Part shown: positions 14,085 to 31,767 of the stretch, piece by piece | Layout: the number at the start of each line of letters is the position of its first letter | How positions within the stretch are numbered: the first letter of the stretch is position 1 | From: Candidatus Magasanikbacteria bacterium RIFCSPLOWO2_12_FULL_43_12 | GTDB taxonomy: Bacteria > Patescibacteriota > Patescibacteriia > Magasanikbacterales > UBA922 | DNA length: 64,000 nt | Assembly: GCA_001783065.1 (NCBI GenBank) | Contig: MFQN01000019.1 | Location: 309-64,308, forward strand | Direction of reading: 5' to 3' | Position numbers and translations under genes: made by a program | The notes under the pieces: model-generated | What the model was told of the DNA's origin: nothing | Databases searched by the model: none | The model's input: only the letters and a program-made list of their open reading frames with translations

Positions 14085-14870
14085 ATGAAAACAGTCATTT
14101 TATGCGGCGGTATCGGCACCAGAATGAAAGAAGAAACCGAGTTTAAGCCGAAACCGTTGGTTTTGGTTGGCGGTAAGCCGATTTTGTGGCATATCATGAA
14201 AATTTATGCCCATCACGGTTTTAATGACTTTATTTTAGCGCTTGGCTATAAAGGCGACATGATAAAGCAGTATTTTTTGAATTGGAGGAGTTTTTTGAAT
14301 GATTTTACTCTCTGCACCAGAGATAACGCTATAAGTTTTCACAACAATGATTGCGATGATTTCAAAATTACTTTCGTCGAAACAGGTTTGGACAGCTTGA
14401 CCGGGGAGCGGGTCCGCCTTGTGAAGAAGTACATTGACGGGGATGACTTCATGATCACTTATGGGGATGGAGTGGCTGATATTGATATCCACGCTTTAGT
14501 TAATTTTCATAAGATCCAGAATACATTGGCGACGGTAACAGCTGTTCGCGCCGGGAATCGGTTTGGATTTTTAAATATTAATCACGACACTAAAAAAGTG
14601 ATTAATTTTTTTCAACATAAAGTGGCGGGGAGCAGCGAGGACAGACAAAAGGATTTCATCAATGGCGGATTTATGGTTTTGAAAAAAGAAGCGCTTGATC
14701 TGATCCCGGAGAATGGCATGATTGAATCAATTTACCCGATATTAGCCGGCAAAGGCGAGCTCTCCGTCTATCTGCATGATGGCAAATGGAAATGCATGGA
14801 CACGCACAAAGAATATGAAGAACTGAACGCGCATTGGAAAGAAGACCCATTTTGGAAAGTTTGGGAGTAA
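14085..14870 (+). CDS. rfbF: Glucose-1-phosphate cytidylyltransferase
   Basis: MKTVILCGGIGTRMKEETEFKPKPLVLVGGKPILWHIMKIYAHHGFNDFILALGYKG is near-identical in pattern to RfbF/DdhA N-termini. 261 aa. Confidence 0.85.
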   Translation: MKTVILCGGIGTRMKEETEFKPKPLVLVGGKPILWHIMKIYAHHGFNDFILALGYKGDMIKQYFLNWRSFLNDFTLCTRDNAISFHNNDCDDFKITFVETGLDSLTGERVRLVKKYIDGDDFMITYGDGVADIDIHALVNFHKIQNTLATVTAVRAGNRFGFLNINHDTKKVINFFQHKVAGSSEDRQKDFINGGFMVLKKEALDLIPENGMIESIYPILAGKGELSVYLHDGKWKCMDTHKEYEELNAHWKEDPFWKVWE

Positions 14871-19274: not shown

Positions 19275-22200
19275 AAAACTGAATTATCTTTTAGTAATGC
19301 CGCGTCTAGTCCAAAATATTGGCGATGGCTATGTTTTTCCTCTTGGGGTGGCTTACGTTTCTTCAAGCATGAAAAAAGCGGGGTTTAATGTTTTCACATT
19401 AAATTTAAATCACAAAGAGGGCGATGTTTTTGAAATAATTAAAAAAACAATTGAAAAGAATAATATCCATGTTGTCGCGACCGGAGGCCTTTCGCCTCAA
19501 TATCATCTTGTTAAAAACGTTATTGAATCGGCAAAAAAAGTTAATAATAATATAATCACAATTGTGGGTGGCGGCATAATTACCGCCGATTGTGAAACCG
19601 CCATGAAGGCGCTGGAATTTGCAGATTATGGAGTCATCGGCGAAGGCGAAGAAACGATGTGTGAACTTTGCCGTATTTTAGAAAATAACGGAGACCTTTC
19701 AGTTTGCGACGGGCTTATTTATAAGGAAAGAGAGGGTTTTAAAGTTACAAATCCGCGCAAAGATATTGCTGATGTCAACGGTATTCCGTGGCCAGACTAC
19801 GAGGGTTTTGATACCGATAAATATCTTGAGGTTCCGCCGGCTGGATTTGCGGGATTAAATCAAAAACGAATGATCTGCATGCTGGGAAGCCGCTCCTGTC
19901 CTTTTCAATGCACTTTCTGCTGTCATACTCTCGGTAAAAAATATCGACGCCGATCTCTCGATGATTTTTTTGGCGAACTGGATTATTTAATTTCCCGCTA
20001 CAAAATTGATTATATTTCTTTAGCCGATGAGGTATTCGCCCCGGATTTTGAAAACGCGAAAAAATTCTGCGATCGAATAAAACAATACAATATTCATTGG
20101 TATGCCGATTTTAGAGTTGATTTGGTAAAGCCCGAACTCCTTCCTATTTTAAAGGAAAGCGGTCTTGATGTTATGTTTTTCGGTTTAGAAAGCGCGGACA
20201 ATAGGATTTTAAAAAGCATGCGCAAAGGCATTACCATTGAACAAACCGAAAGAGTTCTCAAGATGGTGTATGATGCCGGAATTGCCGGTTACGGTTGTTT
20301 TATATTCGGCGATATTGAAGAAACTTTTGAAACGGCTTTGAATACGCTTAACTGGTGGCGAGCGCACAAGGAATATGGCATCCATTTAACTCTTATTAAG
20401 CCGTTTCCCGGTTCATTTATTTACAGATACGCCTGCGAAAAAGGAATTATTAAAGATCCTATCCAATATCTCAAAGATGGCTGTCCCCAGGTGAATATTT
20501 CAAAGCTGAATAATGAGGAGTTCGCGGAAATTATGCGTCAGATTTCGGAGTCATCACACTTGTTGAGCAAGCCCGAATCTTTGGAATTGCTGGCCGTTGA
20601 TCCGGTGTTGGGGCGAGAGTCAGTGTCAGGGCGGTGCTCTAAGTGCAAGCAAAAGAATGTATGGGACGATATTAAATTATTCGCAAACGATTACATCACT
20701 TGCAGTCATTGCGGACAGAAATTTGATAATCCTAATCCGCCCCAATTAATTGAAAACCTTGATAAAAATCTCAGTTTGCTTTTAGCCAAACACGGCAAAG
20801 TAGCCGTATGGGGTATGACGCTGATAATAATGGAGTTATTCAGAAATTCAAAAATACTCAATAATCCGAATATTTTCGCGATAGACATTTCAGACAGCAA
20901 AAGAAAAATGAGTCTTGCCGGAAAAAAAATTTATGCTCCGGAAATTTTAGATAAAGAAAATATCCCTGTCGTGCTAATAGCGGTGCCGTCGCACGCCGGC
21001 CAGATTTCCTGTCAAATTAAAGAGAATCATATCAAAGTTACGGAAATAATCGATATCTGCAAGCTATGTGACTTCAATCCCATTATTCCTCAAAAATTAA
21101 ATTATCTTTTGGTAATGCCGAGGCTTGTCCAGAGAATCGGCGACGGCTATTCTTTCCCGCTCGGGATAACGTTTATTTCTTCCAGCATGAAGAAAGCCGG
21201 GTTGAATGTAAGAACGATCAATTTAAATCATTGCGAGGGAGACGTTTACGATATTTTAAAAAAAGAAATTGAAGAAAACAATATTGACGTAATCGGCGTC
21301 GGCGGTTTGTCATTTCAATATAACACGGTAAGGCTTGTTGTTGAATCCGCGAAAAAAATTAAAAAAGATATTATAACGATAGTCGGCGGAGGAATTATCA
21401 GCGGTGATCCGGAGCCGGCAATGAAAGCTTTGGAATACGCCGACTTCGGTGTAATTGGAGAGGGTGAGATGACAATGAACGAGCTTTGTTCTGCGTTGGA
21501 AGGCAAAAAAAACTTTACAGATATAGAGGGAATAATTTATAAAAATAGGGATTCTTATACCACAAATAATCCGCGTAAAGAAATGGCAAACATAGATACG
21601 CTTCCTTGGCCGGATTATGGCGGGTTTGAAATTCAAAAATATTTGGATTCTACCCCGCCGGGCATTAGTGGTTTGAACAGAAAAACGCTTTTTATGTTAG
21701 CGAGTCGTTCGTGTCCGTATAGTTGTACGTTTTGTTTTCATACGAATGGCAGAAGATATCGACAAAGATCACTTGATGATTTTTTTGCAGAACTTGAGTC
21801 CGTTGTCTCGCAGTATCAGATTGAATTTGTTTGTATGGCCGACGAGCTCTTCGCGCGCAACATAGAACGGGTTAAAGAATTTTGCGAGAAAATAAAAAAG
21901 TTTAATATTAAATGGTGGGCACAGTTCAGAGTTGATGATATTACTCTTGAGTTGCTTGCTGTCTTAAAGGCTGGCGGCTGCGAGGTTATGTCGTTCGGAT
22001 TGGAAAGCGCCGACAATCGCATTTTAAAAAGCATGAGAAAAGGCATCACCATAGAACAGATTGAGCGAACGCTAAGGATGGTTTATGAAGCGGGAATATC
22101 ATTTGAGGGTGCGTTCATATTCGGGGATATTGAGGAAACAGTGGAAACCGCCAATAATACTTTGAAATGGTGGCGGGAACACGCGGAATATAGAATTACC

Positions 22201-22926
22201 CTTAATTTGATTACGGTTTACCCGGGTTCTTATCTATATATGTACGGGAATGAAAAAGGAATCATAAAAGATAAAATTCAATTTTTAAAAGACGGATGCC
22301 CGCAGATAAATGTTTCAAAATTGTCGGATAAGGAATTATCCGAACTGGTAAGGCAATTGGTGGAGGCGCCGATAAGCATGACCAAACAGTTAATTTCGCC
22401 GGAACTTAAGACCGTGGATTTTCAAACCGGTAGAATCGCTCTTAGCGGGTCATGCGTAGTTTGCGATCACCGAAGCGAATGGAGCGACATTAGAATGTTT
22501 ACCATGAATTTTTTGCCGTGCAAAAAATGCGGACAGAAATATAATGTGCCGCTTTTTCCAGAGATTAGAAAAAATATTGATGACAATTTGCAAATGCTCT
22601 TGCGTAAATATGCCAAAGTAGCGGTGTGGGGCGTCAATTATCATTCATCCGACCTATTCAAAAATTCTTCCGTTCTGCACGATCCAAATATATATCCTGT
22701 TGATATTTCCCAGACGAAACGAAAGATGGATTTATACGAGAAAAAAATATTTGCTCCCGAAATTATAGATCGTGAAAATATCAAAGCTATTGTTGTCGCG
22801 GTGCCCGTTTACTACGCGCAGATCGCGTCTTTGGTGCAAACAAATCACAGGGGTGTCGTTGAAGTGATAGACATATGCGCTTTGACAAGCCGACAATACT
22901 CAAGTCAAGAAAGGATTGGTGTATGA
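19255..22926 (+). CDS. Tandem-fused double cobalamin-binding radical SAM enzyme (two complete B12-rSAM modules, each followed by a Zn-ribbon-like and a Methyltransf_14-like domain)
   Basis: Residues ~8-613 and ~614-1223 are full-length paralogs. Examples are KLNYLLVMPRLVQNIGDGYVFPLG vs KLNYLLVMPRLVQRIGDGYSFPLG, SRSCPFQCTFCCH vs SRSCPYSCTFCFH, and GLESADNRILKSMRKGITIEQ in both. Each half has a B12-binding Rossmann N-terminal domain, a CX3CX2C cluster, C..C......CSHCGQKF or C..C...CKKCGQKY pairs, and a C-terminal KVAVWG... domain. Confidence 0.8.
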   Translation: MNDINTKKLNYLLVMPRLVQNIGDGYVFPLGVAYVSSSMKKAGFNVFTLNLNHKEGDVFEIIKKTIEKNNIHVVATGGLSPQYHLVKNVIESAKKVNNNIITIVGGGIITADCETAMKALEFADYGVIGEGEETMCELCRILENNGDLSVCDGLIYKEREGFKVTNPRKDIADVNGIPWPDYEGFDTDKYLEVPPAGFAGLNQKRMICMLGSRSCPFQCTFCCHTLGKKYRRRSLDDFFGELDYLISRYKIDYISLADEVFAPDFENAKKFCDRIKQYNIHWYADFRVDLVKPELLPILKESGLDVMFFGLESADNRILKSMRKGITIEQTERVLKMVYDAGIAGYGCFIFGDIEETFETALNTLNWWRAHKEYGIHLTLIKPFPGSFIYRYACEKGIIKDPIQYLKDGCPQVNISKLNNEEFAEIMRQISESSHLLSKPESLELLAVDPVLGRESVSGRCSKCKQKNVWDDIKLFANDYITCSHCGQKFDNPNPPQLIENLDKNLSLLLAKHGKVAVWGMTLIIMELFRNSKILNNPNIFAIDISDSKRKMSLAGKKIYAPEILDKENIPVVLIAVPSHAGQISCQIKENHIKVTEIIDICKLCDFNPIIPQKLNYLLVMPRLVQRIGDGYSFPLGITFISSSMKKAGLNVRTINLNHCEGDVYDILKKEIEENNIDVIGVGGLSFQYNTVRLVVESAKKIKKDIITIVGGGIISGDPEPAMKALEYADFGVIGEGEMTMNELCSALEGKKNFTDIEGIIYKNRDSYTTNNPRKEMANIDTLPWPDYGGFEIQKYLDSTPPGISGLNRKTLFMLASRSCPYSCTFCFHTNGRRYRQRSLDDFFAELESVVSQYQIEFVCMADELFARNIERVKEFCEKIKKFNIKWWAQFRVDDITLELLAVLKAGGCEVMSFGLESADNRILKSMRKGITIEQIERTLRMVYEAGISFEGAFIFGDIEETVETANNTLKWWREHAEYRITLNLITVYPGSYLYMYGNEKGIIKDKIQFLKDGCPQINVSKLSDKELSELVRQLVEAPISMTKQLISPELKTVDFQTGRIALSGSCVVCDHRSEWSDIRMFTMNFLPCKKCGQKYNVPLFPEIRKNIDDNLQMLLRKYAKVAVWGVNYHSSDLFKNSSVLHDPNIYPVDISQTKRKMDLYEKKIFAPEIIDRENIKAIVVAVPVYYAQIASLVQTNHRGVVEVIDICALTSRQYSSQERIGV
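19276..21093 (+). repeat. Tandem intragenic duplication, unit 1 (~1.8 kb)
   Basis: The codon for K8 (19276) aligns with K614 (21094), offset 1818 nt. Nucleotide identity is ~70-75% in the stretches I compared by eye, and protein identity ~55-60%. Confidence 0.7.
21094..22923 (+). repeat. Tandem intragenic duplication, unit 2
   Basis: See unit 1. It is fused in frame with no stop codon between the units. Confidence 0.7.
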
Positions 22927-22981
22927 TTTCAGATTCTAAGATGGCTATTGATTTTAAAATTTATTTAAGTTTAATTAACAT

Positions 22982-24130
22982 ATGACCAACACAGAAGAAT
23001 TAAAACCGATTGAAAGCGTAAAAAGGGACCAGCTCAAACGAGAAAAACCGTATGTTTATGAGAAGATCATGAAATATGATGGCAAGATTAAAAGAGGCGA
23101 AAGCATTGCCATCCTTCAATTTCAATATGACTATACCTGCAATTTTCTTTGCGAGCACTGTTGTATAACAAAATTAAGACGCAAATCGATTGGAGGGTGC
23201 GCGTTACCAACCAACACAACATCTACCGTTATAAAGCAAGGTGATAAGTCATTTACGCCAGACGATGTAAAGGAGCTTTGTAGGCAGGCGGACGAAATGG
23301 GGCTCGCACATTTTGTGATCACTGGAGGCGAGCCGTTAGTATTTACTGACTTTGATAAAATAGTTGAAGCGGTTGATCCGCAGAAATTTTACATTACTTC
23401 TGATACAAATGGTTGGTTTTTGGATGAAAAAAGAGCGAAGCATTTAAAAGACATAGGGGTTGATAAAGTTCAGATAAGCCTGGACAGTCTTTCCGCCGCG
23501 GAGCACGATAATTTTAGGAAACATGCCGGCGCGCATGAAAAAGTCCTTAGAGCCATTGACGCCGCCAAGAATGCCGGACTGAATGTTCTTGTCCAAACTG
23601 TTGTTACCAAGCAAAGAGTTAGATCGCAAGAATTTGAAGATTTTTTAAAATTTTTAAATAACGAAAAAGGCGTGCCGGTGTTTATAACCTACGCGAAGCC
23701 GGTGGGGGATTGGGAAGGAAATTTTGATGCCATGGTTAACCAAGAAGAGATGGATTATGTCAGAGAGTTGGAAAAGAAATATAATGTATTTACGCATTTA
23801 ACCCCGTCGTATGGGCTTGATCTCGGCTGTATCGCTGTTAAAAGAATGGTTTCCATTACAAAGTATGGAGATATAATGCCCTGCCCCTACATGCATGTTT
23901 CTCTCGGAAATTTTTTCAAGGAACCGTTAAAAGATATTTTTGAAAGAGGATTGAACACCAAGCAGTTCGGGCAGTATTATGAATCATGTTATATGGCTGA
24001 AGACAGGAAATTTATTGATAAGTATATCGCGGGAAGAGTATATGGCAAAAAGTTGCCGGTGCCTTACAACGAGGTGTTCACCGAAGAAGACTTTATTAAG
24101 CCAAGCGAGCGAAAACTTTATAAGGATTAA
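22982..24130 (+). CDS. Radical SAM enzyme (MoaA/SPASM-twitch-like)
   Basis: It has a CX3CX2C motif (CNFLCEHC) and ITGGEPLVF. C-terminal cysteines are CIAV...CPYMH. Confidence 0.7.
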   Translation: MTNTEELKPIESVKRDQLKREKPYVYEKIMKYDGKIKRGESIAILQFQYDYTCNFLCEHCCITKLRRKSIGGCALPTNTTSTVIKQGDKSFTPDDVKELCRQADEMGLAHFVITGGEPLVFTDFDKIVEAVDPQKFYITSDTNGWFLDEKRAKHLKDIGVDKVQISLDSLSAAEHDNFRKHAGAHEKVLRAIDAAKNAGLNVLVQTVVTKQRVRSQEFEDFLKFLNNEKGVPVFITYAKPVGDWEGNFDAMVNQEEMDYVRELEKKYNVFTHLTPSYGLDLGCIAVKRMVSITKYGDIMPCPYMHVSLGNFFKEPLKDIFERGLNTKQFGQYYESCYMAEDRKFIDKYIAGRVYGKKLPVPYNEVFTEEDFIKPSERKLYKD

Positions 24131-24133
24131 TGT

Positions 24134-25183
24134 ATGAATGAATTAGCAACCGACCTGGATGAAATTTTAGAAAAAACCTCGGGCCTTTGGGAAGAATTGC
24201 GCGGGCAGAGAGTTTTTATTACGGGTGGAACCGGATTTTTTGGTTGCTGGCTGCTGGAAAGCTTCGCTTGGATTAACGAAAAACTTGCGCTTAATGCCTC
24301 GGCTGTCGTGTTGACAAGGGACTACGAGGCGTTTAAAATGAAAGCGCCGCATCTTGCGTCTAATCCGTCAATAAAATTTCACATTGGAGACATTAGAAAT
24401 TTTGAATTTCCGGATGGGGATTTTTCGCATGTTATCCACGCGGCCGCCACTTCGGCTATTGCTACCTATAATAATGAAAACCCACGGGTCAAATACGATA
24501 CGGTCGTGGAGGGAACGAGGCATGCTTTAAATTTTGCCGTTGAATGTCGCGCCAAAAAATTTCTTTATACGAGCTCGGGCGCCGTCTACGGAAAACCGCC
24601 CGCCGAGATGACGCATATCCCTGAAGATTATAATGGCGCTCCCGACTCCACCGCTGTCAAATCGGCTTGGGGCGAGAGTAAGCGAGCTGCGGAATTTTTA
24701 TGCGCCTATTATGCCAATAGATATGATTTAGAAATAAAGACGGCGCGCTGTTTTTCTTTTATTGGCCCGTATCTTCCTTTGGATATTCATTACGCAATTG
24801 GAAATTTTATTCGCGACGCGTCGCGCGGCGGTCCGGTGCGAGTCAATGGCGACGGCACGCCTCGCCGTTCATATCTTTATGCCTCTGATTTAATGATTTG
24901 GCTGTGGACAATATTTTTTAAGGGTGTTTCAGGCAGGCCATATAATGTCGGCTCCGAGGATGATGTAACTATTGCGGAATTAGCCCATATTGTGGTAAGC
25001 TGTTTGCAAAGTTATTCGGAGGTAAAAATCGCCAAATTACCGGCGCCAAACACGACGGAGGAGCGCTATGTGCCGTCAACCGGTCGCGCGCGGATGGAAT
25101 TGGGTCTTAGACAGACGGTCGGGCTTGAAGAGGCAATTAAACGAACGGCAGGATTATTTAAAAAAATTAATAAAACAGTATGA
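24134..25183 (+). CDS. NAD-dependent epimerase/dehydratase (extended SDR), possibly non-canonical active site
   Basis: FITGGTGFFGCWL Rossmann motif and a SSGAVYG block. At the expected YxxxK position the sequence reads AWGESK (Trp in place of Tyr). Confidence 0.65.
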   Translation: MNELATDLDEILEKTSGLWEELRGQRVFITGGTGFFGCWLLESFAWINEKLALNASAVVLTRDYEAFKMKAPHLASNPSIKFHIGDIRNFEFPDGDFSHVIHAAATSAIATYNNENPRVKYDTVVEGTRHALNFAVECRAKKFLYTSSGAVYGKPPAEMTHIPEDYNGAPDSTAVKSAWGESKRAAEFLCAYYANRYDLEIKTARCFSFIGPYLPLDIHYAIGNFIRDASRGGPVRVNGDGTPRRSYLYASDLMIWLWTIFFKGVSGRPYNVGSEDDVTIAELAHIVVSCLQSYSEVKIAKLPAPNTTEERYVPSTGRARMELGLRQTVGLEEAIKRTAGLFKKINKTV

Positions 25184-26703
25184 CAGAAAAATTAGACCAA
25201 GCTAAACCGCTTTTTATTTTTGATTTAGCGAATAACCACATGGGCGATGTTGAGCATGGGCTGAAGATTATCCGCGAGGTGCATGCGGCCTGTCGGCATT
25301 TTGTTTCCCATGGCTGGAATTTCGCTTTTAAATTCCAATATCGTGATTTTGATTCTTTTATCCATCCTGATTATAAAGAAAGAATGGATTTAAGATACAT
25401 CAAACGTTTTTCCGAAACGCGATTAAGCGAGGAACAGTTTTTAGTTTTAAAAAATGAAGTTGATAAATTGGGTTTTATTTCAGTCTGCACGCCGTTTGAT
25501 GAAAAATCGGTTGATAAAGCAGTGAAACATGGTTTTGACATCATTAAAATCGCCAGCGCTTCGTTTACCGATTGGTCATTGTTAGAAAAAGTCGTTCAAA
25601 CCGATAAGCCGATAATCGCTTCCACCGGCGGGGTTAAATTGGAAGACATTGATAAGGTGGTAACTTTTTTGCGGCACCGCGGCAAAGAGTTTGTCATTAT
25701 GCACTGTGTTGGACAGTATCCAACCTCGAAAGACCAATTGCAATTGAATCAAATAGACTTATTAAAAAAAAGATATCCGGAGGTAATTATTGGTTTTTCT
25801 ACTCACGAGTCACCGGATAATTTAGACGCTGTTAAGTTAGCCATAGCTAAGGGAACATCAATTTTTGAAAAGCATGTGGGAATAACAACCGAAAAATACC
25901 CGCTAAACGCTTATTCGGCCACGCCGGAACAGACTAAAGGGTGGTTAGAAGCGGCTCAAATGGCTTATACAATTTGCGGCACAGTCAACAAGAGGCATGA
26001 GTTTGCCAAACAAGAGCTGGCTGATATTAGGCAATTTCAAAGAGGTGTTTTCGCGTCAGTTGACATAAAAGCAGGTGAGAGAGTGGAAATAAAAGATACT
26101 TTTTTTGCTTTCCCCAATCAAGAAGGACAAGTTTTGGCGAATGAGATGTCCAAATACACCTTCTATACCGCCCGGAAAGATTACAAGATGAATGAACCGA
26201 TTATGTCTAGTAGCGTGAGTAGAACGGAAGTCCGCGGAAAAGTTTATTTGGCAGTGGAAAGAATCAACAAGTTTTTACGCCAGGCTAATATCCCCATATC
26301 TAATAAGTGGGATTTTGAGCTCTCGCATCATTACGGTCTGGATAAATTTTATGAATACGGGGCCAGTCTGGTGACCTGTTTAAATCGAGAATATTGCAAA
26401 AAGCTGATAGTAGTTTTACCCGGCCAAAAACATCCGAGCCACTCGCACAAATTAAAAGAAGAAACTTTTCATGTCTTATGGGGCGATGTGGTATTTATTG
26501 TCAGCGGTGAAAGGAAAGAGTGCGGGCCGAGCGATATCGTAACCATAGAAAGGGAGTCCAATCATAGTTTTGAATCAACCAACGGATGCGTGTTGGAAGA
26601 AATTTCCACCACTCATTATAAAGACGATACTTTTTACGAAGACGCGAGCATCGCGCAAAATCAAAATCGGAAAACCCAACTGACTTACTGGGTGATTCAA
26701 TGA
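25180..26703 (+). CDS. NeuB-family PEP-sugar aldolase (nonulosonic/ulosonic acid synthase) with SAF domain and an extra C-terminal cupin domain
   Basis: LFIFDLANNHMGD, KIASASFTD, STGG, HCVGQYP and IGFSTHE form the NeuB/PseI TIM-barrel pattern. The SAF domain shows ASVDIKAGERV. The C-terminal ~130 aa contain a two-His cupin motif (HPSHSHKLKEETFHVLWGDVVFIVSGE). Confidence 0.7.
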   Translation: MTEKLDQAKPLFIFDLANNHMGDVEHGLKIIREVHAACRHFVSHGWNFAFKFQYRDFDSFIHPDYKERMDLRYIKRFSETRLSEEQFLVLKNEVDKLGFISVCTPFDEKSVDKAVKHGFDIIKIASASFTDWSLLEKVVQTDKPIIASTGGVKLEDIDKVVTFLRHRGKEFVIMHCVGQYPTSKDQLQLNQIDLLKKRYPEVIIGFSTHESPDNLDAVKLAIAKGTSIFEKHVGITTEKYPLNAYSATPEQTKGWLEAAQMAYTICGTVNKRHEFAKQELADIRQFQRGVFASVDIKAGERVEIKDTFFAFPNQEGQVLANEMSKYTFYTARKDYKMNEPIMSSSVSRTEVRGKVYLAVERINKFLRQANIPISNKWDFELSHHYGLDKFYEYGASLVTCLNREYCKKLIVVLPGQKHPSHSHKLKEETFHVLWGDVVFIVSGERKECGPSDIVTIERESNHSFESTNGCVLEEISTTHYKDDTFYEDASIAQNQNRKTQLTYWVIQ

Positions 26704-26710
26704 TTTATTT

Positions 26711-27634
26711 GTGGAAATGAAAACACACCGTAATTTAGGGCAAATTAAACTTGAAGAAGCCAGACCGCGGCTTCAGTTGTTTGGTTTAGATTATGACGGG
26801 ACAGTCGCTGATGCTGCTCATAAGCAGCCGCAAGTTTTTGCTTTGGTGGAAAAGATTTTCGCTAAAAATAAATCAGTGGCGTTTATTACGGCCAGAGCGG
26901 CTACCGCGATAAAAGTTTTAGTGCCGCCCTTGCAAGAATTGCTCGTTCGCGAGAATGTAACCGTTCCCAGTTTTGTCGCCGGCGGCAACGGAACTACTCT
27001 GTATGAAGTGAAAAAGAATGAACTGATTGAAATTTATAATCATGGTTTAGAATTATCAAAAATCCAGCAAGCAGTGGAGATAGGAAGGAAAGTCTATGAA
27101 AAATTGGGAATCAATAACGCGAATTTAGCGGAGAAGGGATTAGAAACATTTAGAAGATTTTTACGGGAACCGTGGGAAGGATTTATCCCTGCGGAAATGA
27201 TTGATGTTTGCCGGCCATATAATGGCGAACTTTTTACCGAACAGGCCAAGGTTACTTTTGTTTTGCCTAAAGAAAAAGATTTGCATCAGAGAGTTATAGC
27301 TGAACTCAATCAGGCGTTAGGCGCGGAGTATTGCGCCGTAGCCGGTGATGACACCTTTGTCCACATAACTAAAAGACTTGAGGAAGACAGCAAGAGCGTG
27401 GCAATCAAGACTGTTTTAAATATATTGGGTTTGGATTCAGCCCAAGTGGTAACTTTCGGCGATATGCCTGCGGGGAATGATGCCGGTTTGTTAAGTTTCC
27501 CGTACAGTTTTACCAATTCAGATGATTATTTTAATCTCAAGAAAGACCCCGAACAACCGCCGTATGTCTTGCCAGATTTAGAGTTGTCGCCGGTTGATCG
27601 CGTTTATAAAGCGATAGAGTATCTAATTAGTTAA
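26711..27634 (+). CDS. HAD-superfamily phosphatase (subfamily IIB/Cof-like)
   Basis: It has the LDYDGTVAD DxDGT motif I and TFGDMPAGNDAGLL motif IV. Confidence 0.6.
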   Translation: MEMKTHRNLGQIKLEEARPRLQLFGLDYDGTVADAAHKQPQVFALVEKIFAKNKSVAFITARAATAIKVLVPPLQELLVRENVTVPSFVAGGNGTTLYEVKKNELIEIYNHGLELSKIQQAVEIGRKVYEKLGINNANLAEKGLETFRRFLREPWEGFIPAEMIDVCRPYNGELFTEQAKVTFVLPKEKDLHQRVIAELNQALGAEYCAVAGDDTFVHITKRLEEDSKSVAIKTVLNILGLDSAQVVTFGDMPAGNDAGLLSFPYSFTNSDDYFNLKKDPEQPPYVLPDLELSPVDRVYKAIEYLIS

Positions 27635-27639
27635 TTCCT

Positions 27640-29310
27640 ATGAAATTAAGCGATTACGTGTTTCAATTTATCAAAAAAGAAGTGGCAGATTCAGTTTTTT
27701 TGGTTTCCGGCGGAGGAATTATGCATTTAGTTGATTCATTGGGCAAATCAGAACTCAAATCATATTGTTGCCATCATGAACAGGCGGCGGCAATCGCGGC
27801 CGAAGGTTATGGGCGAGTGAAAAATTCGCCGGGAGTTGTCATGGTTACAACCGGTCCGGGCGGCACGAACGCGATTACCGGAATTGCCGGAGCGTGGTTG
27901 GATAGCATCCCGATGCTTGTCATAGCCGGACAGGTCAAGCGCGCAAGCATTACTCCGTGTCAAAACGGAGTACCAGTTGTCAGAGCGATTGGTTTTCAGG
28001 AATTAAATGTGATTGATTTGGTTAAGCCGATTACAAAATACGCTGTTACGGTTGAAGATGAAAAAGAAATACGTTACCATTTAGAAAAAGCCGTCTATTT
28101 ATCAAGACACGGCAGACCGGGTCCGGTTTTTGTTGAAATTCCCCTGGATGTTCAAGCAACAGAGATAGAACCGGAGAGTTTAAAATCTTTTGACCCATCA
28201 GAGGTTGAAGAAAAAATAAATTTGGATTCAGCGGCAATAAGTAAGGTCGCGGAGCTTCTTAAAAATGCAAAGAGGCCTTTGTTAATGGCAGGAAACGGGG
28301 TAAGATTGGCAGGGGGCGAAGAAATTTTATGGAAAGTTTTAAATAAATTAAAAATTAATACGATTACTCCGATTTTTACCGCCGATGATCTGGTCACTTA
28401 CGATTATCCGAAATACTTGGGACGGCAGGGGATGTGGGGGAACAAATCGGCTAATTACGCGATAGATAATTGCGATGTTTTATTAATCATAGGGGAGCGC
28501 ATGCAGCTCACGCAAGTTTCTTGGGATTACGCAAAGTTCGCGACTCAAGCGACAAAAATCATGGTGGATATTGATAAGAATGAAATGGCAAAATTTACTC
28601 TTAAAGCGGATTTTCCGATTCATTGCGACGCCAAATTATTTTTAGAAGAACTTTATAAGCAAGATATCACATTAAACGAATGGGAAGTAAAAATCGAACC
28701 GATTGACGCGGAAAAATATCCTTGTGAAAATAAATATCTGAATGTTTTTAAATTTTTTAATGAGTTAAATAATTGGCCGGTAAAAATGGCTGTTACCACT
28801 GCCAATGGCATGGCTAGCCTTGCCTCACACCAAGCGTTAAAATTACCGCGCGGAAAAAGATTCCTCACCAATGCGGGATTGGGACATATGGGCTCCGGTC
28901 TTCCAATGGCAATCGGCGCCAGCATAGCTGGCGGCAAGGCTGTGATTATGTGCATGGAAGGGGACGGCTCGCTGATGATGAATTTTCAAGAGCTACAGAC
29001 CGTTGTCCATCATCAATTGCCGATAAAAATCTTTATTTTTAATAATAACGGGTATTTTTCAATTAGAAACACCCACCTTAATTTTTTCAAGAAAATTTTT
29101 GCCGCTGATCCAACGTCCGGCGTCAGTTTGCCGGATTACCAAAAACTTATTCCGGCTTGGGGGTTGGAATTTGAACGGATTAATGATGATAGCGAATTAG
29201 ATAAATTAAAAAAAGTGATGGATTATGATGGGCCGATTGTCTGCGAACTGATGCTGGATCCATATCAGCCGCTATTGGAAAAATGGACCGCCGGGATGTT
29301 TAAAGAATAA
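27640..29310 (+). CDS. Thiamine-diphosphate-dependent enzyme, acetolactate synthase large-subunit-like (YerE-like candidate sugar C-branching enzyme)
   Basis: GPGGTNAITGIAGAWLDSIPMLVIAGQ (N-terminal Pyr domain) and a C-terminal ThDP-binding GDGS...NN motif (EGDGSLMMNFQEL...NNNGY) are present. 556 aa. Confidence 0.8.
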   Translation: MKLSDYVFQFIKKEVADSVFLVSGGGIMHLVDSLGKSELKSYCCHHEQAAAIAAEGYGRVKNSPGVVMVTTGPGGTNAITGIAGAWLDSIPMLVIAGQVKRASITPCQNGVPVVRAIGFQELNVIDLVKPITKYAVTVEDEKEIRYHLEKAVYLSRHGRPGPVFVEIPLDVQATEIEPESLKSFDPSEVEEKINLDSAAISKVAELLKNAKRPLLMAGNGVRLAGGEEILWKVLNKLKINTITPIFTADDLVTYDYPKYLGRQGMWGNKSANYAIDNCDVLLIIGERMQLTQVSWDYAKFATQATKIMVDIDKNEMAKFTLKADFPIHCDAKLFLEELYKQDITLNEWEVKIEPIDAEKYPCENKYLNVFKFFNELNNWPVKMAVTTANGMASLASHQALKLPRGKRFLTNAGLGHMGSGLPMAIGASIAGGKAVIMCMEGDGSLMMNFQELQTVVHHQLPIKIFIFNNNGYFSIRNTHLNFFKKIFAADPTSGVSLPDYQKLIPAWGLEFERINDDSELDKLKKVMDYDGPIVCELMLDPYQPLLEKWTAGMFKE

Positions 29311-29320
29311 ATTTTTCGTT

Positions 29321-29791
29321 ATGTTAACCGCCATGGAACTAAAACAATTAGTGTCTTTACTGAAAAAGATAGATAACCCTCACGAGGGCATGCCCCAGCC
29401 AATTTTTGACGCTTTGTGCGGCGTGGTCGCGTTTGTCGCGTGTGAATTGGTGGTTGTGGATAAAAAGAGGGGTATCTTGCTAACCTGGCGCAATGACAGG
29501 TGGTGGCGCGGGTGGCACTTTCCTGGCGGGCTCCTACGCTATCGTGAAAGTTTTGATGAACGGATACAGGCAGTCGCGTGGAAAGAACTTGGTGTTAATG
29601 TAGAAGATTATAAACTTCTATTTACCAAAGATTGCAGCCAAGGCGCGCGCGGCCATGTTGTTTCTTTAGTTTTTCGCTGTGAAACGGCGATGAAGCCAAA
29701 ACACGGCAAATTTTTTAAAAAAATGCCGAAAAATATCATAGACGCGCACAAAGAATTTTGGATTAAATTTGAAAAATTATTGAATAATTAA
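29321..29791 (+). CDS. Nudix-fold hydrolase with non-canonical Nudix box, GDP-mannose mannosyl hydrolase (Gmm/NudD)-like
   Basis: WHFPGGLLRYRESFDERIQAVAWKELGV parallels the Gmm [28 protein letters not shown]. 156 aa (Gmm is ~159 aa). Confidence 0.55.
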   Translation: MLTAMELKQLVSLLKKIDNPHEGMPQPIFDALCGVVAFVACELVVVDKKRGILLTWRNDRWWRGWHFPGGLLRYRESFDERIQAVAWKELGVNVEDYKLLFTKDCSQGARGHVVSLVFRCETAMKPKHGKFFKKMPKNIIDAHKEFWIKFEKLLNN

Positions 29792-29795
29792 AAAT

Positions 29796-30737
29796 ATGCC
29801 GGAAAGAAAAAAAATAAGCGTTGTTACCGCTTGTTTCAACGAGGAAGAAAATGTTGATGCCGTCTATCGACAGGTTCAAGCTGTTTTCGCCGAGTTGCCA
29901 CAATATGACTACGAGCATTTATTTATTGATAACTGCTCCACAGACAAAACAGTCAGTATTCTAAAAAATATCGCCCAAGATGATAGGCGCGTAAAGATTA
30001 TAGTTAACGCCAGAAATTTTGGCCAAGTTAGAACTGGTTGTCATGCTATTGCGCAAGCACAAGGCGATGCAGTGGTAAATTTAGTCTGTGATTTGCAGGA
30101 CCCGCCGGTTTTAATCAAAGATTTCATAAAAAAATGGGAAGAAGGTTATAAGGTAGTCATCGGAATCAAAAATAAGAGCGCCGAAAATTCGGTAATGTTC
30201 ATGATAAGAAGGGTGTATTATAATCTTATTAAAAAAATTGCTGAAATAGAACAAATTAAAAATTTTACCGGCTTTGGCCTATATGATCGGATTATTATCA
30301 ATGCCTTAAAAAAATTTGATGATCCATACCCCTATCTTCGCGGTATGATTGCGGAAGTTGGATTTGAGCGAGCTGAAATCGAATATATTCAACCTGAAAG
30401 AGAAAAAGGAAGATCCAAAAATAATTTCTATTCCCTGTATGACATGGCGATGCTTGGTTTTGTGAATCACTCCAAGATCCCGTTGCGTCTGGCCAGCTTT
30501 ATCGGGTTTGGGATGTCAATTTTAAGTTTTATAGTTGCCATGATTTATTTAGTTTATAAGTTATTATATTGGCAGGAATTTGAACTCGGTTTGGCGCCTT
30601 TGATTATTGGAATATTTTTATTCGCTTCGGTGCAATTATTTTTTATCGGAATTTTAGGAGAATATATCGGGGCGATTTATACTCAAGTGAAACACCGTCC
30701 GCTTGTCATTGAAAAGGAGAGGATTAATTTTGATTGA
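29796..30737 (+). CDS. gtrB: Family 2 glycosyltransferase, GtrB-like bactoprenol-phosphate sugar transferase (two C-terminal TM helices)
   Basis: ISVVTACFNEEENV, DNCSTDKT and DLQDPP motifs are present. The C-terminal hydrophobic segments are LASFIGFGMSILSFIVAMIYL and LIIGIFLFASVQLFFIGILG. Confidence 0.7.
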   Translation: MPERKKISVVTACFNEEENVDAVYRQVQAVFAELPQYDYEHLFIDNCSTDKTVSILKNIAQDDRRVKIIVNARNFGQVRTGCHAIAQAQGDAVVNLVCDLQDPPVLIKDFIKKWEEGYKVVIGIKNKSAENSVMFMIRRVYYNLIKKIAEIEQIKNFTGFGLYDRIIINALKKFDDPYPYLRGMIAEVGFERAEIEYIQPEREKGRSKNNFYSLYDMAMLGFVNHSKIPLRLASFIGFGMSILSFIVAMIYLVYKLLYWQEFELGLAPLIIGIFLFASVQLFFIGILGEYIGAIYTQVKHRPLVIEKERINFD

Positions 30738-31120
30738 TTTCCGCCATGTTGGAAAAGTTGATAAAAAATCAATTTATCAGGTTTTTATTTGCCGGCGGGC
30801 TGAATACCGTATTTGGTTATGGTATTTTTTCTTTTTTTCTTTGGCTCGGCCTGCATTATTCTTTGGCGTCGTTGTTGAGCACTTTTTTTGGCATTTTATT
30901 TAATTTTAAAACTACCGGTATTATTGTGTTTAATTCCCGCAATAATTTGTTGATTTTAAAATTTTTTGGTGTTTATGGGGTGACGTATGTTTTGGGTGTG
31001 TTTATCATGTATCTGTTCAGTCTTTTGCATATCAGCGCCTATATTTCCGGAGCGATATTGATTTTACCGATGGCATGCGTGGCTTTTCTTCTAAATAAGC
31101 GTTTTGTCTTCAGGTCTTGA
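30734..31120 (+). CDS. gtrA: GtrA-family small membrane protein (putative lipid-linked sugar translocation component)
   Basis: 128 aa with 4 TM helices. FIRFLFAGGLNTVFGYGIF matches the GtrA-like family N-terminus. It overlaps gtrB by ATGA. Confidence 0.65.
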   Translation: MISAMLEKLIKNQFIRFLFAGGLNTVFGYGIFSFFLWLGLHYSLASLLSTFFGILFNFKTTGIIVFNSRNNLLILKFFGVYGVTYVLGVFIMYLFSLLHISAYISGAILILPMACVAFLLNKRFVFRS

Positions 31121-31742: not shown

Positions 31743-31767
31743 GCCATCCACAATTTCCTACCAATCA

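What the first reader, a model, noticed from the sequence alone, without database searches (positions are those of the whole stretch)
22982..29310. Sub-cluster: rSAM, atypical SDR, NeuB-cupin fusion, HAD phosphatase and YerE-like ThDP enzyme
The NeuB-family synthase at 25180 carries an extra C-terminal two-His cupin domain (507 aa vs ~350 typical). It is immediately followed by a HAD-IIB phosphatase and a 556-aa ALS-like ThDP enzyme. A second, canonical PseI/NeuB (58301) exists elsewhere in the window, so this copy probably makes a different ulosonic acid. A dedicated phosphatase next to a NeuB homolog is the hallmark of routes that go through a phosphorylated sugar (Kdo-8-P/KDN-9-P/Neu5Ac-9-P type), not the Pse/Leg type. 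The ThDP enzyme could add a two-carbon branch (YerE chemistry) or act on the keto-acid.
Basis: inference. Interest (0 to 1): 0.6.

Follow-up and report, generated by a model that had tools for sequence, protein, structure and literature searches.

The report
Long-branch sugar pathway fed by NeuB-isomerase
The unusual sialic-acid-synthase-like gene most likely does not make a sialic-acid-type sugar; together with its phosphatase it probably builds a sugar acid that the neighbouring thiamine enzyme grafts as a long side chain onto a CDP-activated dideoxy sugar, a cassette found in hundreds of species.

Summary
All five genes are present at the stated coordinates with the stated domains. The source is a Candidatus Magasanikbacteria (CPR) genome.

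The reading changes once neighbours and relatives are examined. In 80 related loci from many phyla, the NeuB-cupin gene is followed by the ThDP gene in 62 of 66 loci with enough flank. It usually sits beside CDP-glucose synthase, 4,6-dehydratase and the 3-dehydrase E1/RfbH. All three are in this operon (14085, 14877, 31929).

- **ThDP enzyme:** its closest solved relatives are YerE-like carboligases, not acetolactate synthases.
- **Cupin:** it is a D-lyxose-isomerase-type sugar isomerase by sequence and by predicted fold.
- **Phosphatase:** a phosphatase accompanies the pair in 61 of 80 loci, drawn from four mutually exclusive HAD families. This window has the rare HAD-IIB type.
- **CMP-ulosonate synthetase:** almost never linked (3 of 80 loci).

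The same cassette lies in Mycobacterium gastri, which makes gastriose, a 3,6-dideoxyhexose with a C7 branch.

Best model: isomerase, then NeuB condensation with PEP, then phosphatase, giving a 3-deoxy-octulosonic acid. The ThDP enzyme decarboxylates it and adds it to C4 of CDP-4-keto-3,6-dideoxyglucose. This is a new donor-module variant of the published acyl-branched-sugar scheme.

The parts
14085..14870 (+). Glucose-1-phosphate cytidylyltransferase (makes CDP-glucose, the start of the acceptor branch)
   Evidence: NCBIfam TIGR02623 scores 274 bits against a cut-off of 300. A homologue lies near NeuB-cupin in 52 of 80 loci.
14877..15842 (+). CDP-glucose 4,6-dehydratase-like SDR
   Evidence: The best NCBIfam model is TIGR02622, at 188 bits and below its cut-off. 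A homologue is present in 59 of 80 loci.
15793..16965 (+). NDP-sugar C-methyltransferase type (zinc-finger N-domain, SAM domain, Methyltransf_14 C-domain); tailoring
   Evidence: Pfam. Orthologues at about 56% identity occur in 28 of 80 loci.
16946..19274 (+). GT2 glycosyltransferase (16946-18061) plus a radical SAM protein with a NeuD-like N-terminal stretch (18045-19274); accessory pair
   Evidence: The two genes travel together in 11 of 80 loci.
19255..22926 (+). 1223-aa tandem fusion of two B12-binding radical SAM modules (probable methylations at unactivated carbons); specific to this genome
   Evidence: Two B12-binding and two Radical_SAM matches. No counterpart in the 80 loci.
22982..24130 (+). 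Radical SAM/SPASM enzyme; conserved tailoring enzyme with an unknown reaction
   Evidence: Pfam. Orthologues at 55-70% identity occur in 44 of 80 loci. It falls below every NCBIfam equivalog cut-off.
24134..25183 (+). Extended SDR with Trp in place of the catalytic Tyr. It is a homologue of SDRs in other branched-sugar clusters and a candidate, doubtful, for the YerF-like step.
   Evidence: It is 34% identical to the JanthE-cluster SDR351 and 44% identical to the J. lividum SDR-HAD fusion. In P0014 it is fused to NeuB-cupin.
25180..26211 (+). NeuB-type PEP-dependent synthase domain plus a SAF-like domain (residues 1-344 of the 507-aa protein)
   Evidence: Pfam NeuB 138 bits. The best PDB match is 3g8r at 375 bits, against 83 bits for N. 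meningitidis NeuB. H209, H232, K51, Q53, K123 and E230 align with the NeuB catalytic residues. The AlphaFold model has pLDDT 81 and Foldseek ranks 3g8r, NeuB and PseI first.
26212..26703 (+). D-lyxose-isomerase-type cupin domain (residues 345-507)
   Evidence: Cupin_2 30.7 bits and Lyx_isomer 25 bits. The domain profile hits 2y0o at 4.7e-13 and 7nzo at 5e-12. The model has pLDDT 88.8, and the ten best Foldseek hits are all D-lyxose isomerases.
26711..27634 (+). HAD-IIB (Cof-type) phosphatase in the 'phosphatase slot' between the synthase and the ThDP enzyme
   Evidence: Hydrolase_3 35.4 bits. Motifs I-IV are conserved. Orthologues occur only in 5 CPR/DPANN loci. The same slot holds NT5C-like, mini-HAD or HAD_2 phosphatases elsewhere.
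27640..29310 (+). YerE-like ThDP-dependent carboligase
   Evidence: Three TPP domains and a GDG..NN motif. PDB matches: JanthE 8rph 363 bits, PpYerE 5ahk 239 bits, AHAS at most 221 bits. It is below all AHAS cut-offs. A homologue follows NeuB-cupin in 62 of 66 loci.
29321..29791 (+). NUDIX hydrolase; conserved accessory gene, role unknown
   Evidence: Pfam. Homologues occur in 32 of 80 loci. The PDB search was uninformative.
29796..31120 (+). PgfS/ArnC-like GT2 (polyprenyl-phosphate sugar transferase, 29796-30737) plus a GtrA-family membrane protein (30734-31120)
   Evidence: NCBIfam PgfS 202 bits and ArnC 134 bits, both below their cut-offs. GtrA by Pfam. The GT2 is present in 23 of 80 loci at about 57% identity.
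31929..33233 (+). E1/RfbH, CDP-6-deoxy-L-threo-D-glycero-4-hexulose 3-dehydrase (makes the 3,6-dideoxy-4-keto acceptor)
   Evidence: NCBIfam RfbH scores 699 bits against a cut-off of 423. It scores 563 bits to the Yersinia E1 structure 3bcx. Homologues occur in 55 of 80 loci.

Best explanation
The five genes are the donor-and-coupling core of a pathway to a long-chain C4-branched 3,6-dideoxyhexose, of the 'gastriose' type. The pathway is encoded by the whole same-strand array 14085-33233.

**Acceptor branch (inferred from strong orthology).** Glucose-1-P is converted to CDP-glucose (14085), then to CDP-4-keto-6-deoxyglucose (14877), then to CDP-4-keto-3,6-dideoxyglucose (E1, 31929). The E3 reductase is not encoded here.

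**Donor branch (inferred).**
1. The C-terminal D-lyxose-isomerase-type cupin converts a ketose, most likely a pentulose 5-phosphate, into the matching aldose.
2. The NeuB domain condenses that aldose with PEP to give a 3-deoxy-2-ulosonic acid, most likely C8.
3. The HAD-IIB phosphatase removes the terminal phosphate.

Which intermediate carries the phosphate is not resolved. I favour dephosphorylation after the condensation, in the manner of KdsD-KdsA-KdsC. Dephosphorylation of the ketose before a free-sugar isomerase step, or after the branching step, remain possible.

[quoted passage not shown] It then adds the resulting acyl-anion equivalent to the C4 carbonyl of the CDP-keto sugar, creating a tertiary alcohol that carries a polyhydroxy-2'-deoxy side chain.

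**Tailoring and export (inferred).** The SDR, the C-methyltransferase and the radical SAM enzymes modify the product. The PgfS-like GT2 and GtrA load it onto a polyprenyl phosphate for transfer outside the membrane.
For: **Synteny**
- In 80 loci from many phyla the ThDP gene accompanies NeuB-cupin in 69, and in 62 of the 66 loci with at least 3.5 kb of downstream sequence.
- The order NeuB-cupin > phosphatase > ThDP occurs in 40 of those 66 loci.
- The three CDP-3,6-dideoxy-4-ketohexose genes are present in 52, 59 and 55 of 80 loci. All four partner genes occur together in 37.

**Acceptor genes**
- E1 identity is firm: 699 bits against a cut-off of 423, and 563 bits to PDB 3bcx.

**ThDP enzyme**
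- The closest solved structures are the YerE-like enzymes JanthE (363 bits) and PpYerE (239 bits). Acetohydroxyacid synthases score at most 221 bits (JanthE identity from PMC12188165).

**Published scheme**
- An aldolase makes a functionalised alpha-keto acid. A YerE-like enzyme couples it to CDP-4-keto-3,6-dideoxyglucose. A reductase follows (PMC9306805).

**Swappable donor module**
- JanthE's own locus has the same frame, but a BphI/BphJ-type aldolase-dehydrogenase pair takes the place of NeuB-cupin, and there is no phosphatase.

**M. gastri anchor**
- M. gastri makes the C7-branched gastriose. It carries NeuB-cupin > ThDP > HAD next to E1, the 4,6-dehydratase, the cytidylyltransferase, two methyltransferases and the LOS polyketide synthase.
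- A C7 branch equals PEP (3 C) plus a pentose (5 C) minus CO2.
- The cupin is a D-lyxose (pentose) isomerase homologue.

**Phosphatase**
- Four mutually exclusive HAD families fill the slot in 61 of 80 loci.

**Activation enzymes**
- A CMP-ulosonate synthetase is linked in only 3 of 80 loci. The only nucleotidyltransferase conserved in the cassette is the CDP-glucose enzyme.
Against: - No enzyme of this cassette has been assayed. The published enzymes (ErwE, MMAR_2332, MyGE) were tested with simple keto acids and mostly with aldehyde acceptors, not with an ulosonic acid and the CDP-keto sugar.
- Ulosonic acids are mostly cyclic hemiketals in solution, which may make them poor ThDP donors.
- I could not verify that the M. 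gastri ThDP gene in L086 is the published MyGE, or that 'aldolase MygI' is the NeuB-cupin. The supplement and Krug et al. 2024 are not held.
- No E3 reductase is present in the window.
- The only candidate for the YerF-like reduction has lost its catalytic Tyr.
- D-lyxose isomerases act on free sugars, which fits awkwardly with a phosphorylated NeuB substrate.
- 19 of 80 loci show no phosphatase within 10 kb.
- The chain length (C8) is extrapolated from one organism.
Confidence: 0.7

Rival explanations
1. NeuB-cupin plus HAD make a KDO/KDN-like ulosonic acid through a phosphorylated intermediate, and that acid is itself incorporated into a surface glycan. The ThDP enzyme independently adds a two-carbon branch from pyruvate to a CDP-sugar, as in yersiniose.
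For: - The NeuB catalytic residues are conserved.
- A phosphatase is a conserved partner.
- YerE itself uses pyruvate.
- The window does contain one CTP_transf_3 cytidylyltransferase, at 47084.
Against: - CTP_transf_3 lies within 10 kb of NeuB-cupin in only 3 of 80 loci.
- The copy in the window is 18 kb away, beside the Pse-type genes.
- NeuB-cupin and ThDP are adjacent across phyla (62 of 66 loci).
- NeuB-cupin occupies the slot that an aldolase holds in the JanthE and erwiniose-type clusters.
- M. gastri, which has this cassette, makes a C7-branched sugar, not a C2-branched one.
Confidence: 0.12
2. The overall pathway is the same, but the phosphate is placed differently. In one version the phosphatase first frees a ketose (for example xylulose from xylulose 5-phosphate), the cupin works on free sugars as known D-lyxose isomerases do, and NeuB condenses free D-lyxose with PEP. 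In another version the phosphate stays on through the ThDP step and is removed last.
For: - The cupin is a full-domain homologue of free-sugar D-lyxose isomerases: 27% identity, TM 0.74, and all ten best fold hits.
- Bacterial NeuB, PseI and LegI use unphosphorylated sugars of manno configuration, and D-lyxose is the pentose analogue of mannose (established knowledge).
- For late removal: in M. gastri the HAD gene follows the ThDP gene. In J. lividum, L056, L058 and L059 a mini-HAD is fused to the SDR that is shared with other branched-sugar clusters.
Against: - The commonest gene order is synthase > phosphatase > ThDP (40 of 66 loci).
- All known synthase-phosphatase pairs (KdsA/KdsC, KDN-9-P and Neu5Ac-9-P systems) dephosphorylate the condensation product (established knowledge).
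- Neither point is decisive.
Confidence: 0.35
3. The ThDP enzyme is only a decarboxylase for the ulosonic acid, giving a 2-deoxy-aldose or another small product. Alternatively it is a true acetohydroxyacid synthase of amino-acid metabolism that happens to lie here.
For: The best NCBIfam models by score are acetolactate synthases (353 bits). ThDP decarboxylases of 2-keto acids are common (established knowledge).
Against: - It scores below every AHAS cut-off (353 against 538).
- No AHAS small subunit is present in the window.
- It is closer to YerE-like carboligases than to AHAS in the PDB.
- It is constantly linked to the E1 pathway genes.
- No gene that could activate a 2-deoxy-aldose is conserved in the cassette.
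Confidence: 0.05

Closest known systems
Gastriose cluster of Mycobacterium gastri (MyGE, MygI, MygF; Steitz et al. 2022, PMC9306805)
   Same: The M. gastri locus L086 has NeuB-cupin (about 53% identical to the window protein), immediately followed by a YerE-like ThDP enzyme (40% identical) and a HAD phosphatase. E1, the 4,6-dehydratase, the cytidylyltransferase, a PgfS-like GT2 and GtrA lie beside them. The known product carries a C7 branch on a 3,6-dideoxyhexose.
   Different: - The phosphatase is a HAD_2 type, not HAD-IIB.
- M. gastri has two O-methyltransferase-type genes and no radical SAM genes.
- The window adds a C-methyltransferase, three radical SAM proteins and a Tyr-to-Trp SDR.
- Whether the published 'aldolase MygI' is this NeuB-cupin could not be checked.
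Yersiniose, erwiniose and caryophyllose pathways (YerE/YerF; ErwE/ErwI/ErwJ; MMAR_2331/2332) and the JanthE locus
   Same: All use the same acceptor genes and a YerE-like ThDP enzyme that forms a tertiary alcohol at C4. A C-C bond-forming enzyme that makes the keto-acid donor sits next to the ThDP gene.
   Different: The donors there are pyruvate, or acids made by pyruvate aldolases (BphI-like or HpcH-like), without a phosphatase. Here the donor module is a PEP-dependent NeuB-type synthase fused to a sugar isomerase, plus a phosphatase, which predicts a longer, sugar-derived branch.
KDO-8-P, KDN-9-P and Neu5Ac-9-P routes (isomerase, PEP-dependent synthase, HAD phosphatase)
   Same: The logic is the same: isomerase, then PEP condensation, then dephosphorylation. 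The product is a 3-deoxy-2-ulosonic acid.
   Different: No CMP-activating enzyme is linked (3 of 80 loci). The acid is predicted to be consumed as an acyl donor, not transferred as a sugar. The isomerase is a cupin fused to the synthase rather than a SIS-domain KdsD or a separate PMI.
NeuB, PseI and LegI nonulosonic acid synthases
   Same: TIM-barrel NeuB domain with a SAF-like domain. The metal-binding His pair and the PEP-binding Lys residues are conserved.
   Different: It scores only 124-131 bits against cut-offs of 340-400 and about 23% identity to N. meningitidis NeuB. It belongs to a separate subfamily whose only structure is the uncharacterised, cupin-less 3g8r (375 bits). A true PseI is encoded at 58301.
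D-lyxose/D-mannose ketol-isomerases (B. subtilis YdaE 2y0o; Thermofilum 7nzo)
   Same: Whole-domain similarity, including the N-terminal helix and the HxH..E..H metal site.
   Different: Here it is a domain fused to a synthase rather than a free-standing catabolic enzyme. The substrate, and whether it is phosphorylated, are unknown.

Membership tests
NeuB family (PEP-dependent ulosonic acid synthases, PF03102) | NeuB TIM-barrel domain above the Pfam cut-off, and a NeuB-like fold | tested here: met
   138 bits against a cut-off of 22.1. Foldseek on the AlphaFold model ranks 3g8r, NeuB and PseI first, followed by KDO8P and DAH7P synthases.
NeuB family (PEP-dependent ulosonic acid synthases, PF03102) | Metal-binding His pair and PEP/substrate Lys, Gln and Glu residues | tested here: met
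   H209 and H232 align with N. meningitidis NeuB H215 and H236. K51, Q53, K123 and E230 are invariant in 20 relatives. Position 15 is Asp here, and Glu in most relatives.
NeuB family (PEP-dependent ulosonic acid synthases, PF03102) | Orthology with NeuB or PseI (NCBIfam equivalog cut-offs) | tested here: not met
   131.5 against 399.65 for NeuB, and 124.5 against 340.25 for PseI.
NeuB family (PEP-dependent ulosonic acid synthases, PF03102) | PEP + aldose condensation activity | not testable with these tools
   Needs an enzyme assay.
D-lyxose/D-mannose isomerase cupins (PF07385) | Cupin barrel with the G-x5-HxH-x4-E-x6-G motif and the second His motif | tested here: met
   G415, H421, H423, E428, G435 and H462 are conserved in the family alignment. 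Cupin_2 scores 30.7 against a cut-off of 27.2.
D-lyxose/D-mannose isomerase cupins (PF07385) | Full-domain sequence and fold similarity to characterised D-lyxose isomerases | tested here: met
   The profile hits 2y0o at 4.7e-13 and 7nzo at 5e-12. Foldseek gives TM 0.74/0.71, rmsd 2.0 A and 27% identity, and the ten best hits are all D-lyxose isomerases.
D-lyxose/D-mannose isomerase cupins (PF07385) | Pfam Lyx_isomer model above its cut-off | tested here: inconclusive
   The whole-protein score is 25.0 against a cut-off of 20.8, but no single stretch passes on its own and only profile positions 56-110 of 222 are matched.
HAD-IIB (Cof-type) phosphatases | HAD motifs I-IV, including the DxDxT nucleophile motif | tested here: met
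   DYDGT, ITAR, a conserved Lys, and GDMPxGND, conserved in all 5 orthologues.
HAD-IIB (Cof-type) phosphatases | Family model cut-offs | tested here: inconclusive
   Pfam Hydrolase_3 scores 35.4 against 20.9 (met). NCBIfam HAD-SF-IIB scores 29.6 against 41.8 and Cof scores 28.4 against 137 (not met).
YerE-like ThDP carboligases (decarboxylase superfamily) | Three-domain ThDP fold with the GDG..NN cofactor motif | tested here: met
   TPP_enzyme_N, _M and _C. The sequence reads MEGDGSLMMN...FNNNGY.
YerE-like ThDP carboligases (decarboxylase superfamily) | Closer to characterised YerE-like enzymes than to acetohydroxyacid synthases | tested here: met
   JanthE 363 bits and PpYerE 239 bits, against at most 221 bits for AHAS. 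It is below all AHAS NCBIfam cut-offs. No full phylogeny was made.
YerE-like ThDP carboligases (decarboxylase superfamily) | Carboligation of a keto-acid donor to a keto-sugar acceptor | not testable with these tools
   Needs an enzyme assay.
Acyl-branched-sugar gene clusters (Steitz et al. 2022 scheme) | Genes for CDP-4-keto-3,6-dideoxyglucose | tested here: inconclusive
   The cytidylyltransferase, the 4,6-dehydratase-like SDR and E1 are present. The E3 reductase is absent from the window and from the related loci inspected.
Acyl-branched-sugar gene clusters (Steitz et al. 2022 scheme) | A keto-acid-forming C-C enzyme next to the ThDP enzyme | tested here: met
   NeuB-cupin lies upstream of ThDP here and in 62 of 66 loci. 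It is a PEP-dependent synthase type, not a pyruvate aldolase.
Acyl-branched-sugar gene clusters (Steitz et al. 2022 scheme) | YerF-like NAD(P)H reductase for the branch carbonyl | tested here: inconclusive
   The SDR at 24134 is homologous to SDRs of the JanthE, J. lividum and M. gastri clusters, but it carries Trp for the catalytic Tyr.
CMP-ulosonic acid (KDO/KDN/sialic-type) glycan pathways | A linked CMP-ulosonate synthetase (CTP_transf_3) | tested here: not met
   A jackhmmer search seeded with window 47084-47845 finds it in 3 of 80 loci. The window's only copy is 18 kb away, next to the Pse-type genes.

The most novel reading that the evidence does not exclude
The trio of NeuB-lyxose-isomerase fusion, HAD phosphatase and YerE-like enzyme is an unrecognised and very widespread route. 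It occurs in at least 576 species, from CPR bacteria and DPANN archaea to mycobacteria and cyanobacteria. It diverts a pentose phosphate and PEP into a KDO isomer that is used as a seven-carbon acyl-anion donor rather than as a sugar, giving C13 branched 'gastriose-like' sugars. It would also assign a function to the orphan structure 3g8r. In this Magasanikbacteria genome, the Tyr-to-Trp SDR, the SPASM radical SAM enzyme and a double B12 radical SAM protein would then remodel the product into a sugar with no known counterpart on the cell surface.
Probability: 0.4. Interest if true: 0.7.

Novelty: new variant of a known kind. Interest (0 to 1): 0.55.

Why it matters
- **Annotation.** Several thousand proteins now labelled 'N-acetylneuraminate synthase family' or 'spore coat protein' would be re-annotated. 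They would stop being counted as evidence for sialic-acid-like sugars in CPR bacteria, archaea and mycobacteria.
- **Donor supply.** The model gives a concrete, testable source for the long polyhydroxylated keto-acid donors. The acyl-branched-sugar field has so far only postulated these for gastriose-type sugars.
- **Biocatalysis.** YerE-like enzymes are studied as catalysts for chiral tertiary alcohols, so a natural route to their long donors is relevant there.
- **Surface glycans.** The model predicts that many uncultured lineages decorate their surface with very unusual branched sugars. For episymbiotic CPR and DPANN cells this may bear on host attachment.
- **If wrong.** The region is still an ordinary but richly tailored glycan gene cluster.

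Tried and rejected
- **Literature search 'NeuB' + 'cupin':** only noise. A search for neuraminate synthase, acetolactate synthase and RfbH found nothing relevant.
- **Papers not held:** the supplement of Steitz et al.; Krug et al. 2024 and Lanza et al. 2024; Rombouts et al. 2009. MygI's accession and the exact gastriose side chain could therefore not be verified. A search for 'tetrahydroxyheptyl' gave nothing. The 1,3-di-O-methyl detail rests on my memory only.
- **JanthE context:** I expected JanthE itself to sit beside a NeuB-cupin. It does not. Its locus has a BphI/BphJ-type aldolase pair. That result turned into support for a swappable donor module.
- **NT5C-like protein:** a profile search against the PDB gave no significant hit. 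Family assignment rests on Pfam NT5C matches in 7 of 10 members and on the motifs.
- **Uninformative PDB searches:** the HAD-IIB protein and the NUDIX protein.
- **M. gastri protein P0376:** the look-up was not on record. The longer call of the same gene, P0375, worked.
- **Full-length AlphaFold model:** it gave only NeuB-domain hits in Foldseek, so the cupin was modelled separately.
- **True acetolactate synthase:** considered and rejected (scores, context, no small subunit).
- **Phosphonate pathway:** the weak PhpK-like and PEP_hydrolase hits of the B12 radical SAM protein were considered as a hint and rejected. They are far below cut-off and there is no PEP mutase.
- **RNA genes:** there are no Rfam or tRNA features in the window.

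Full report
**1. The observation**

- 22982-24130 carries Radical_SAM + SPASM.
- 24134-25183 is an extended SDR.
- 25180-26703 carries NeuB (138 bits) plus Cupin_2 (30.7 bits against a cut-off of 27.2).
- 26711-27634 is a HAD Hydrolase_3 protein.
- 27640-29310 carries all three ThDP-enzyme domains (all Pfam assignments).

NCBIfam shows that the fusion protein is no NeuB or PseI orthologue. It scores 131 and 124 bits against cut-offs of 400 and 340. The ORF at 58301 is a true PseI (469 bits). The ThDP enzyme is below every acetolactate synthase cut-off.

The protein is 100% identical to one from Candidatus Magasanikbacteria RIFCSPLOWO2_01_FULL_43_20b.

The SDR is atypical. The Tyr of YxxxK is Trp here and in the nearest orthologues. 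It is Tyr in more distant ones.

**2. The fusion protein**

An alignment of 20 relatives at 56-71% identity is conserved over its whole length.

The NeuB part keeps the metal-binding His pair (H209 and H232, matching H215 and H236 of N. meningitidis NeuB) and the Lys, Gln and Glu residues of the active site. Its best solved relative is 3g8r, a Chromobacterium violaceum 'SpsE' from structural genomics. That protein has no assigned function and no cupin. It scores 375 bits, against 83 bits for real NeuB.

The C-terminal 163 residues have the full cupin metal motif. As a profile they hit D-lyxose isomerases 2y0o (4.7e-13) and 7nzo (5e-12) over the whole domain. An AlphaFold model of this domain (pLDDT 88.8) has D-lyxose isomerases as its ten best Foldseek matches, with TM 0.74 and rmsd 2.0 A.

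The protein is therefore a sugar ketol-isomerase fused to a PEP-dependent synthase.

**3. Context in the window**

Genes run on one strand from 14085 to 35002 with gaps of at most 187 bases.

- Upstream lie a glucose-1-phosphate cytidylyltransferase and a CDP-glucose 4,6-dehydratase-like SDR. Next come a C-methyltransferase, a GT2, a radical SAM protein and a 1223-aa double B12 radical SAM protein.
- Downstream lie a NUDIX protein, a PgfS/ArnC-like GT2, GtrA and a second NUDIX protein.
- E1/RfbH follows at 31929. It scores 699 bits against a cut-off of 423 and 563 bits to the Yersinia E1 structure.

These are the genes for CDP-4-keto-3,6-dideoxyglucose, the acceptor of YerE. The E3 reductase is missing.

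**4. Related loci**

A scan of species-representative genomes found at least 576 loci encoding the fusion. They include Patescibacteria, Nitrospirota, Desulfobacterota, Cyanobacteria, Planctomycetota, Mycobacterium, Methanoperedens, Altiarchaeota and DPANN archaea.

In the 80 loci fetched:

| Partner gene | Loci with it |
|---|---|
| ThDP enzyme | 69 of 80; 62 of the 66 with enough downstream DNA |
| Cytidylyltransferase | 52 of 80 |
| 4,6-dehydratase | 59 of 80 |
| E1 | 55 of 80 |
| SPASM radical SAM | 44 of 80 |
| NUDIX | 32 of 80 |
| C-methyltransferase | 28 of 80 |
| PgfS-like GT2 | 23 of 80 |
| HAD-IIB | 5 of 80, all CPR or DPANN |

Clustering the neighbouring ORFs without reference to the window revealed a roughly 200-aa protein in 46 loci.

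- It carries HAD motifs (WDvDDVLN, T, K, DD).
- It is NT5C-like in 7 of 10 members scanned.
- It usually lies between NeuB-cupin and the ThDP gene, in 37 of 66 loci.

Two further HAD types fill the same role. A 108-aa mini-HAD is fused to the SDR homologue or stands alone in 4 loci and in J. lividum. A HAD_2 type occurs in mycobacteria and three other loci.

The four types never co-occur, and together they cover 61 of 80 loci. A CMP-ulosonate synthetase type of enzyme is present in only 3 of 80 loci.

**5. Literature and anchors**

Steitz et al. 2022 (PMC9306805) proposed, and partly tested, a unifying scheme for branched sugars. An aldolase makes a functionalised alpha-keto acid. A YerE-like ThDP enzyme (ErwE, MMAR_2332, MyGE) adds it to CDP-4-keto-3,6-dideoxyglucose. 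A reductase follows. The branches are C4 in erwiniose, C6 in caryophyllose and C7 in gastriose.

The window's ThDP enzyme is closest in the PDB to JanthE. It scores 363 bits to entry 8rph. JanthE is a YerE-like enzyme whose natural substrates are unknown (PMC12188165). PpYerE follows at 239 bits, and both score ahead of acetohydroxyacid synthases.

JanthE's own locus has the same frame, from cytidylyltransferase through dehydratase and E1 to the ThDP enzyme and an SDR. There, a BphJ/BphI-type dehydrogenase-aldolase pair occupies the donor slot, and there is no phosphatase. The donor module is therefore exchangeable, and the phosphatase goes with NeuB-cupin.

The 90% cluster of a mycobacterial homologue contains the M. 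gastri protein. In that genome the gene is immediately followed by a 620-aa ThDP enzyme and a HAD. Around them lie E1, the dehydratase, the cytidylyltransferase, a GT2, GtrA, two methyltransferases, an SDR and the LOS polyketide synthase.

No other aldolase-type gene lies within 10 kb. The published 'aldolase MygI' is therefore very probably this NeuB-cupin, though I could not check the accession.

A C7 branch is what PEP plus a pentose minus CO2 gives, and the fused isomerase belongs to a pentose (D-lyxose) isomerase family.

**6. Model**

- **Shown:** domain identities, conserved catalytic residues, synteny, and mutual exclusion of the phosphatase types.
- **Inferred:** the isomerase supplies an aldose from a ketose, probably a pentulose 5-phosphate. 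NeuB condenses it with PEP, and a HAD enzyme removes the phosphate. The YerE-like enzyme decarboxylates the 3-deoxy-ulosonic acid and attaches the chain to C4 of the CDP-keto sugar. The tailoring enzymes then act. The PgfS-like GT2 and GtrA pass the sugar to a lipid carrier. Two PMT_2-type GT-C enzymes in the window (1386-2867 and 34958-36364) are candidates for the final transfer.
- **Unresolved:** where the phosphate leaves. The gene order and the KDO/KDN precedents favour removal after condensation. The free-sugar specificity of known D-lyxose isomerases favours removal before it. The SDR-HAD fusions hint at removal after branching.

**7. Rivals**

- A free-standing KDO/KDN-like glycan sugar combined with a C2 yersiniose-type branch is disfavoured. 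The CMP-activating enzyme is missing, the NeuB-cupin/ThDP adjacency is near-universal, and M. gastri makes a C7 branch.
- A plain decarboxylase or a true acetolactate synthase is disfavoured by scores and context.

**8. Novelty**

The pathway class is published. The donor module, its phosphatase displacement series and its breadth across bacteria and archaea are not described in any paper I could read. Krug et al. 2024 and the Steitz supplement could not be consulted. If they already identify MygI as this fusion, the finding drops to a new member of a known kind.

Noticed in passing
window 24134-25183: In this extended SDR the catalytic Tyr of YxxxK is replaced by Trp (AWGESK). The same holds in the P0014 SDR-NeuB-cupin fusion and in five close orthologues. 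The position is Leu or His in two others and Tyr in distant homologues. Whether the protein is still an oxidoreductase is unclear.
   Followed up: partly
window 19255-22926: A 1223-aa protein made of two tandem B12-binding radical SAM modules. None of the 80 related loci has a counterpart covering more than half of it.
   Followed up: partly
window 16946-19274: A GT2 glycosyltransferase and a radical SAM protein with a NeuD-like N-terminal stretch overlap by 17 bases. They recur as an adjacent pair in 11 of 80 related loci.
   Followed up: no
window 31929-33233 and whole window; L082, L086: E1/RfbH is present, but no E3 (AscD-type iron-sulfur flavoprotein reductase) is encoded in the window, in the JanthE locus or in the M. 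gastri locus. In the Cys-rich stretch one E1 Cys is His in the window protein (GCDNTC in Yersinia against GHDNTC here).
   Followed up: partly
L006-L078 (46 loci), e.g. L006:11438-12031: A conserved protein of about 200 aa has no Pfam hit above threshold for its representative, but carries HAD motifs and gives weak NT5C matches. It sits between NeuB-cupin and the ThDP gene. It is absent from the window, where the HAD-IIB gene takes its place.
   Followed up: yes
L081:10276-11673; L056, L058, L059: The SDR homologue carries a C-terminal mini-HAD domain of about 108 aa (VVDVDGV, FTAR, GKP, IDD). This is a natural SDR-phosphatase fusion.
   Followed up: partly
window 25180-26703, residue 15: The window protein has Asp where nearly all relatives have Glu. 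This is the position of Glu25 in N. meningitidis NeuB.
   Followed up: no
window 47084-59365: A second, Pse-type nonulosonic acid gene set. It includes a CTP_transf_3 cytidylyltransferase (47084), PseB-like (51893) and PseC-like (52837) genes, two GNATs and PseI (58301). A HisH/HisF-like pair (56901, 57519) follows an unassigned 395-aa protein (55703); the three together may add an acetamidino group (my inference, not tested).
   Followed up: partly
window 40780-47072: Two Capsule_synth (KpsC/KpsS-like) proteins on opposite strands flank a B12 radical SAM gene (42410) and an ABC exporter (43833). This is unusual company for a CPR bacterium.
   Followed up: no
window 37588-37974: A 128-aa ORF matches only the C-terminal domain of Polysacc_synt flippases. 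It may be a gene remnant or a mis-assembled fragment.
   Followed up: no
PDB 3g8r (Chromobacterium violaceum): This orphan structural-genomics entry, annotated 'SpsE', is a cupin-less member of the same NeuB subfamily (375 bits, about 50% identity). It could be re-annotated if the model holds.
   Followed up: partly
window 1-64000: Nearly every gene in the 64 kb is glycan biosynthesis. They include at least six radical SAM proteins, eight SDRs and five DegT-type enzymes. There are no tRNA genes and no Rfam matches.
   Followed up: partly
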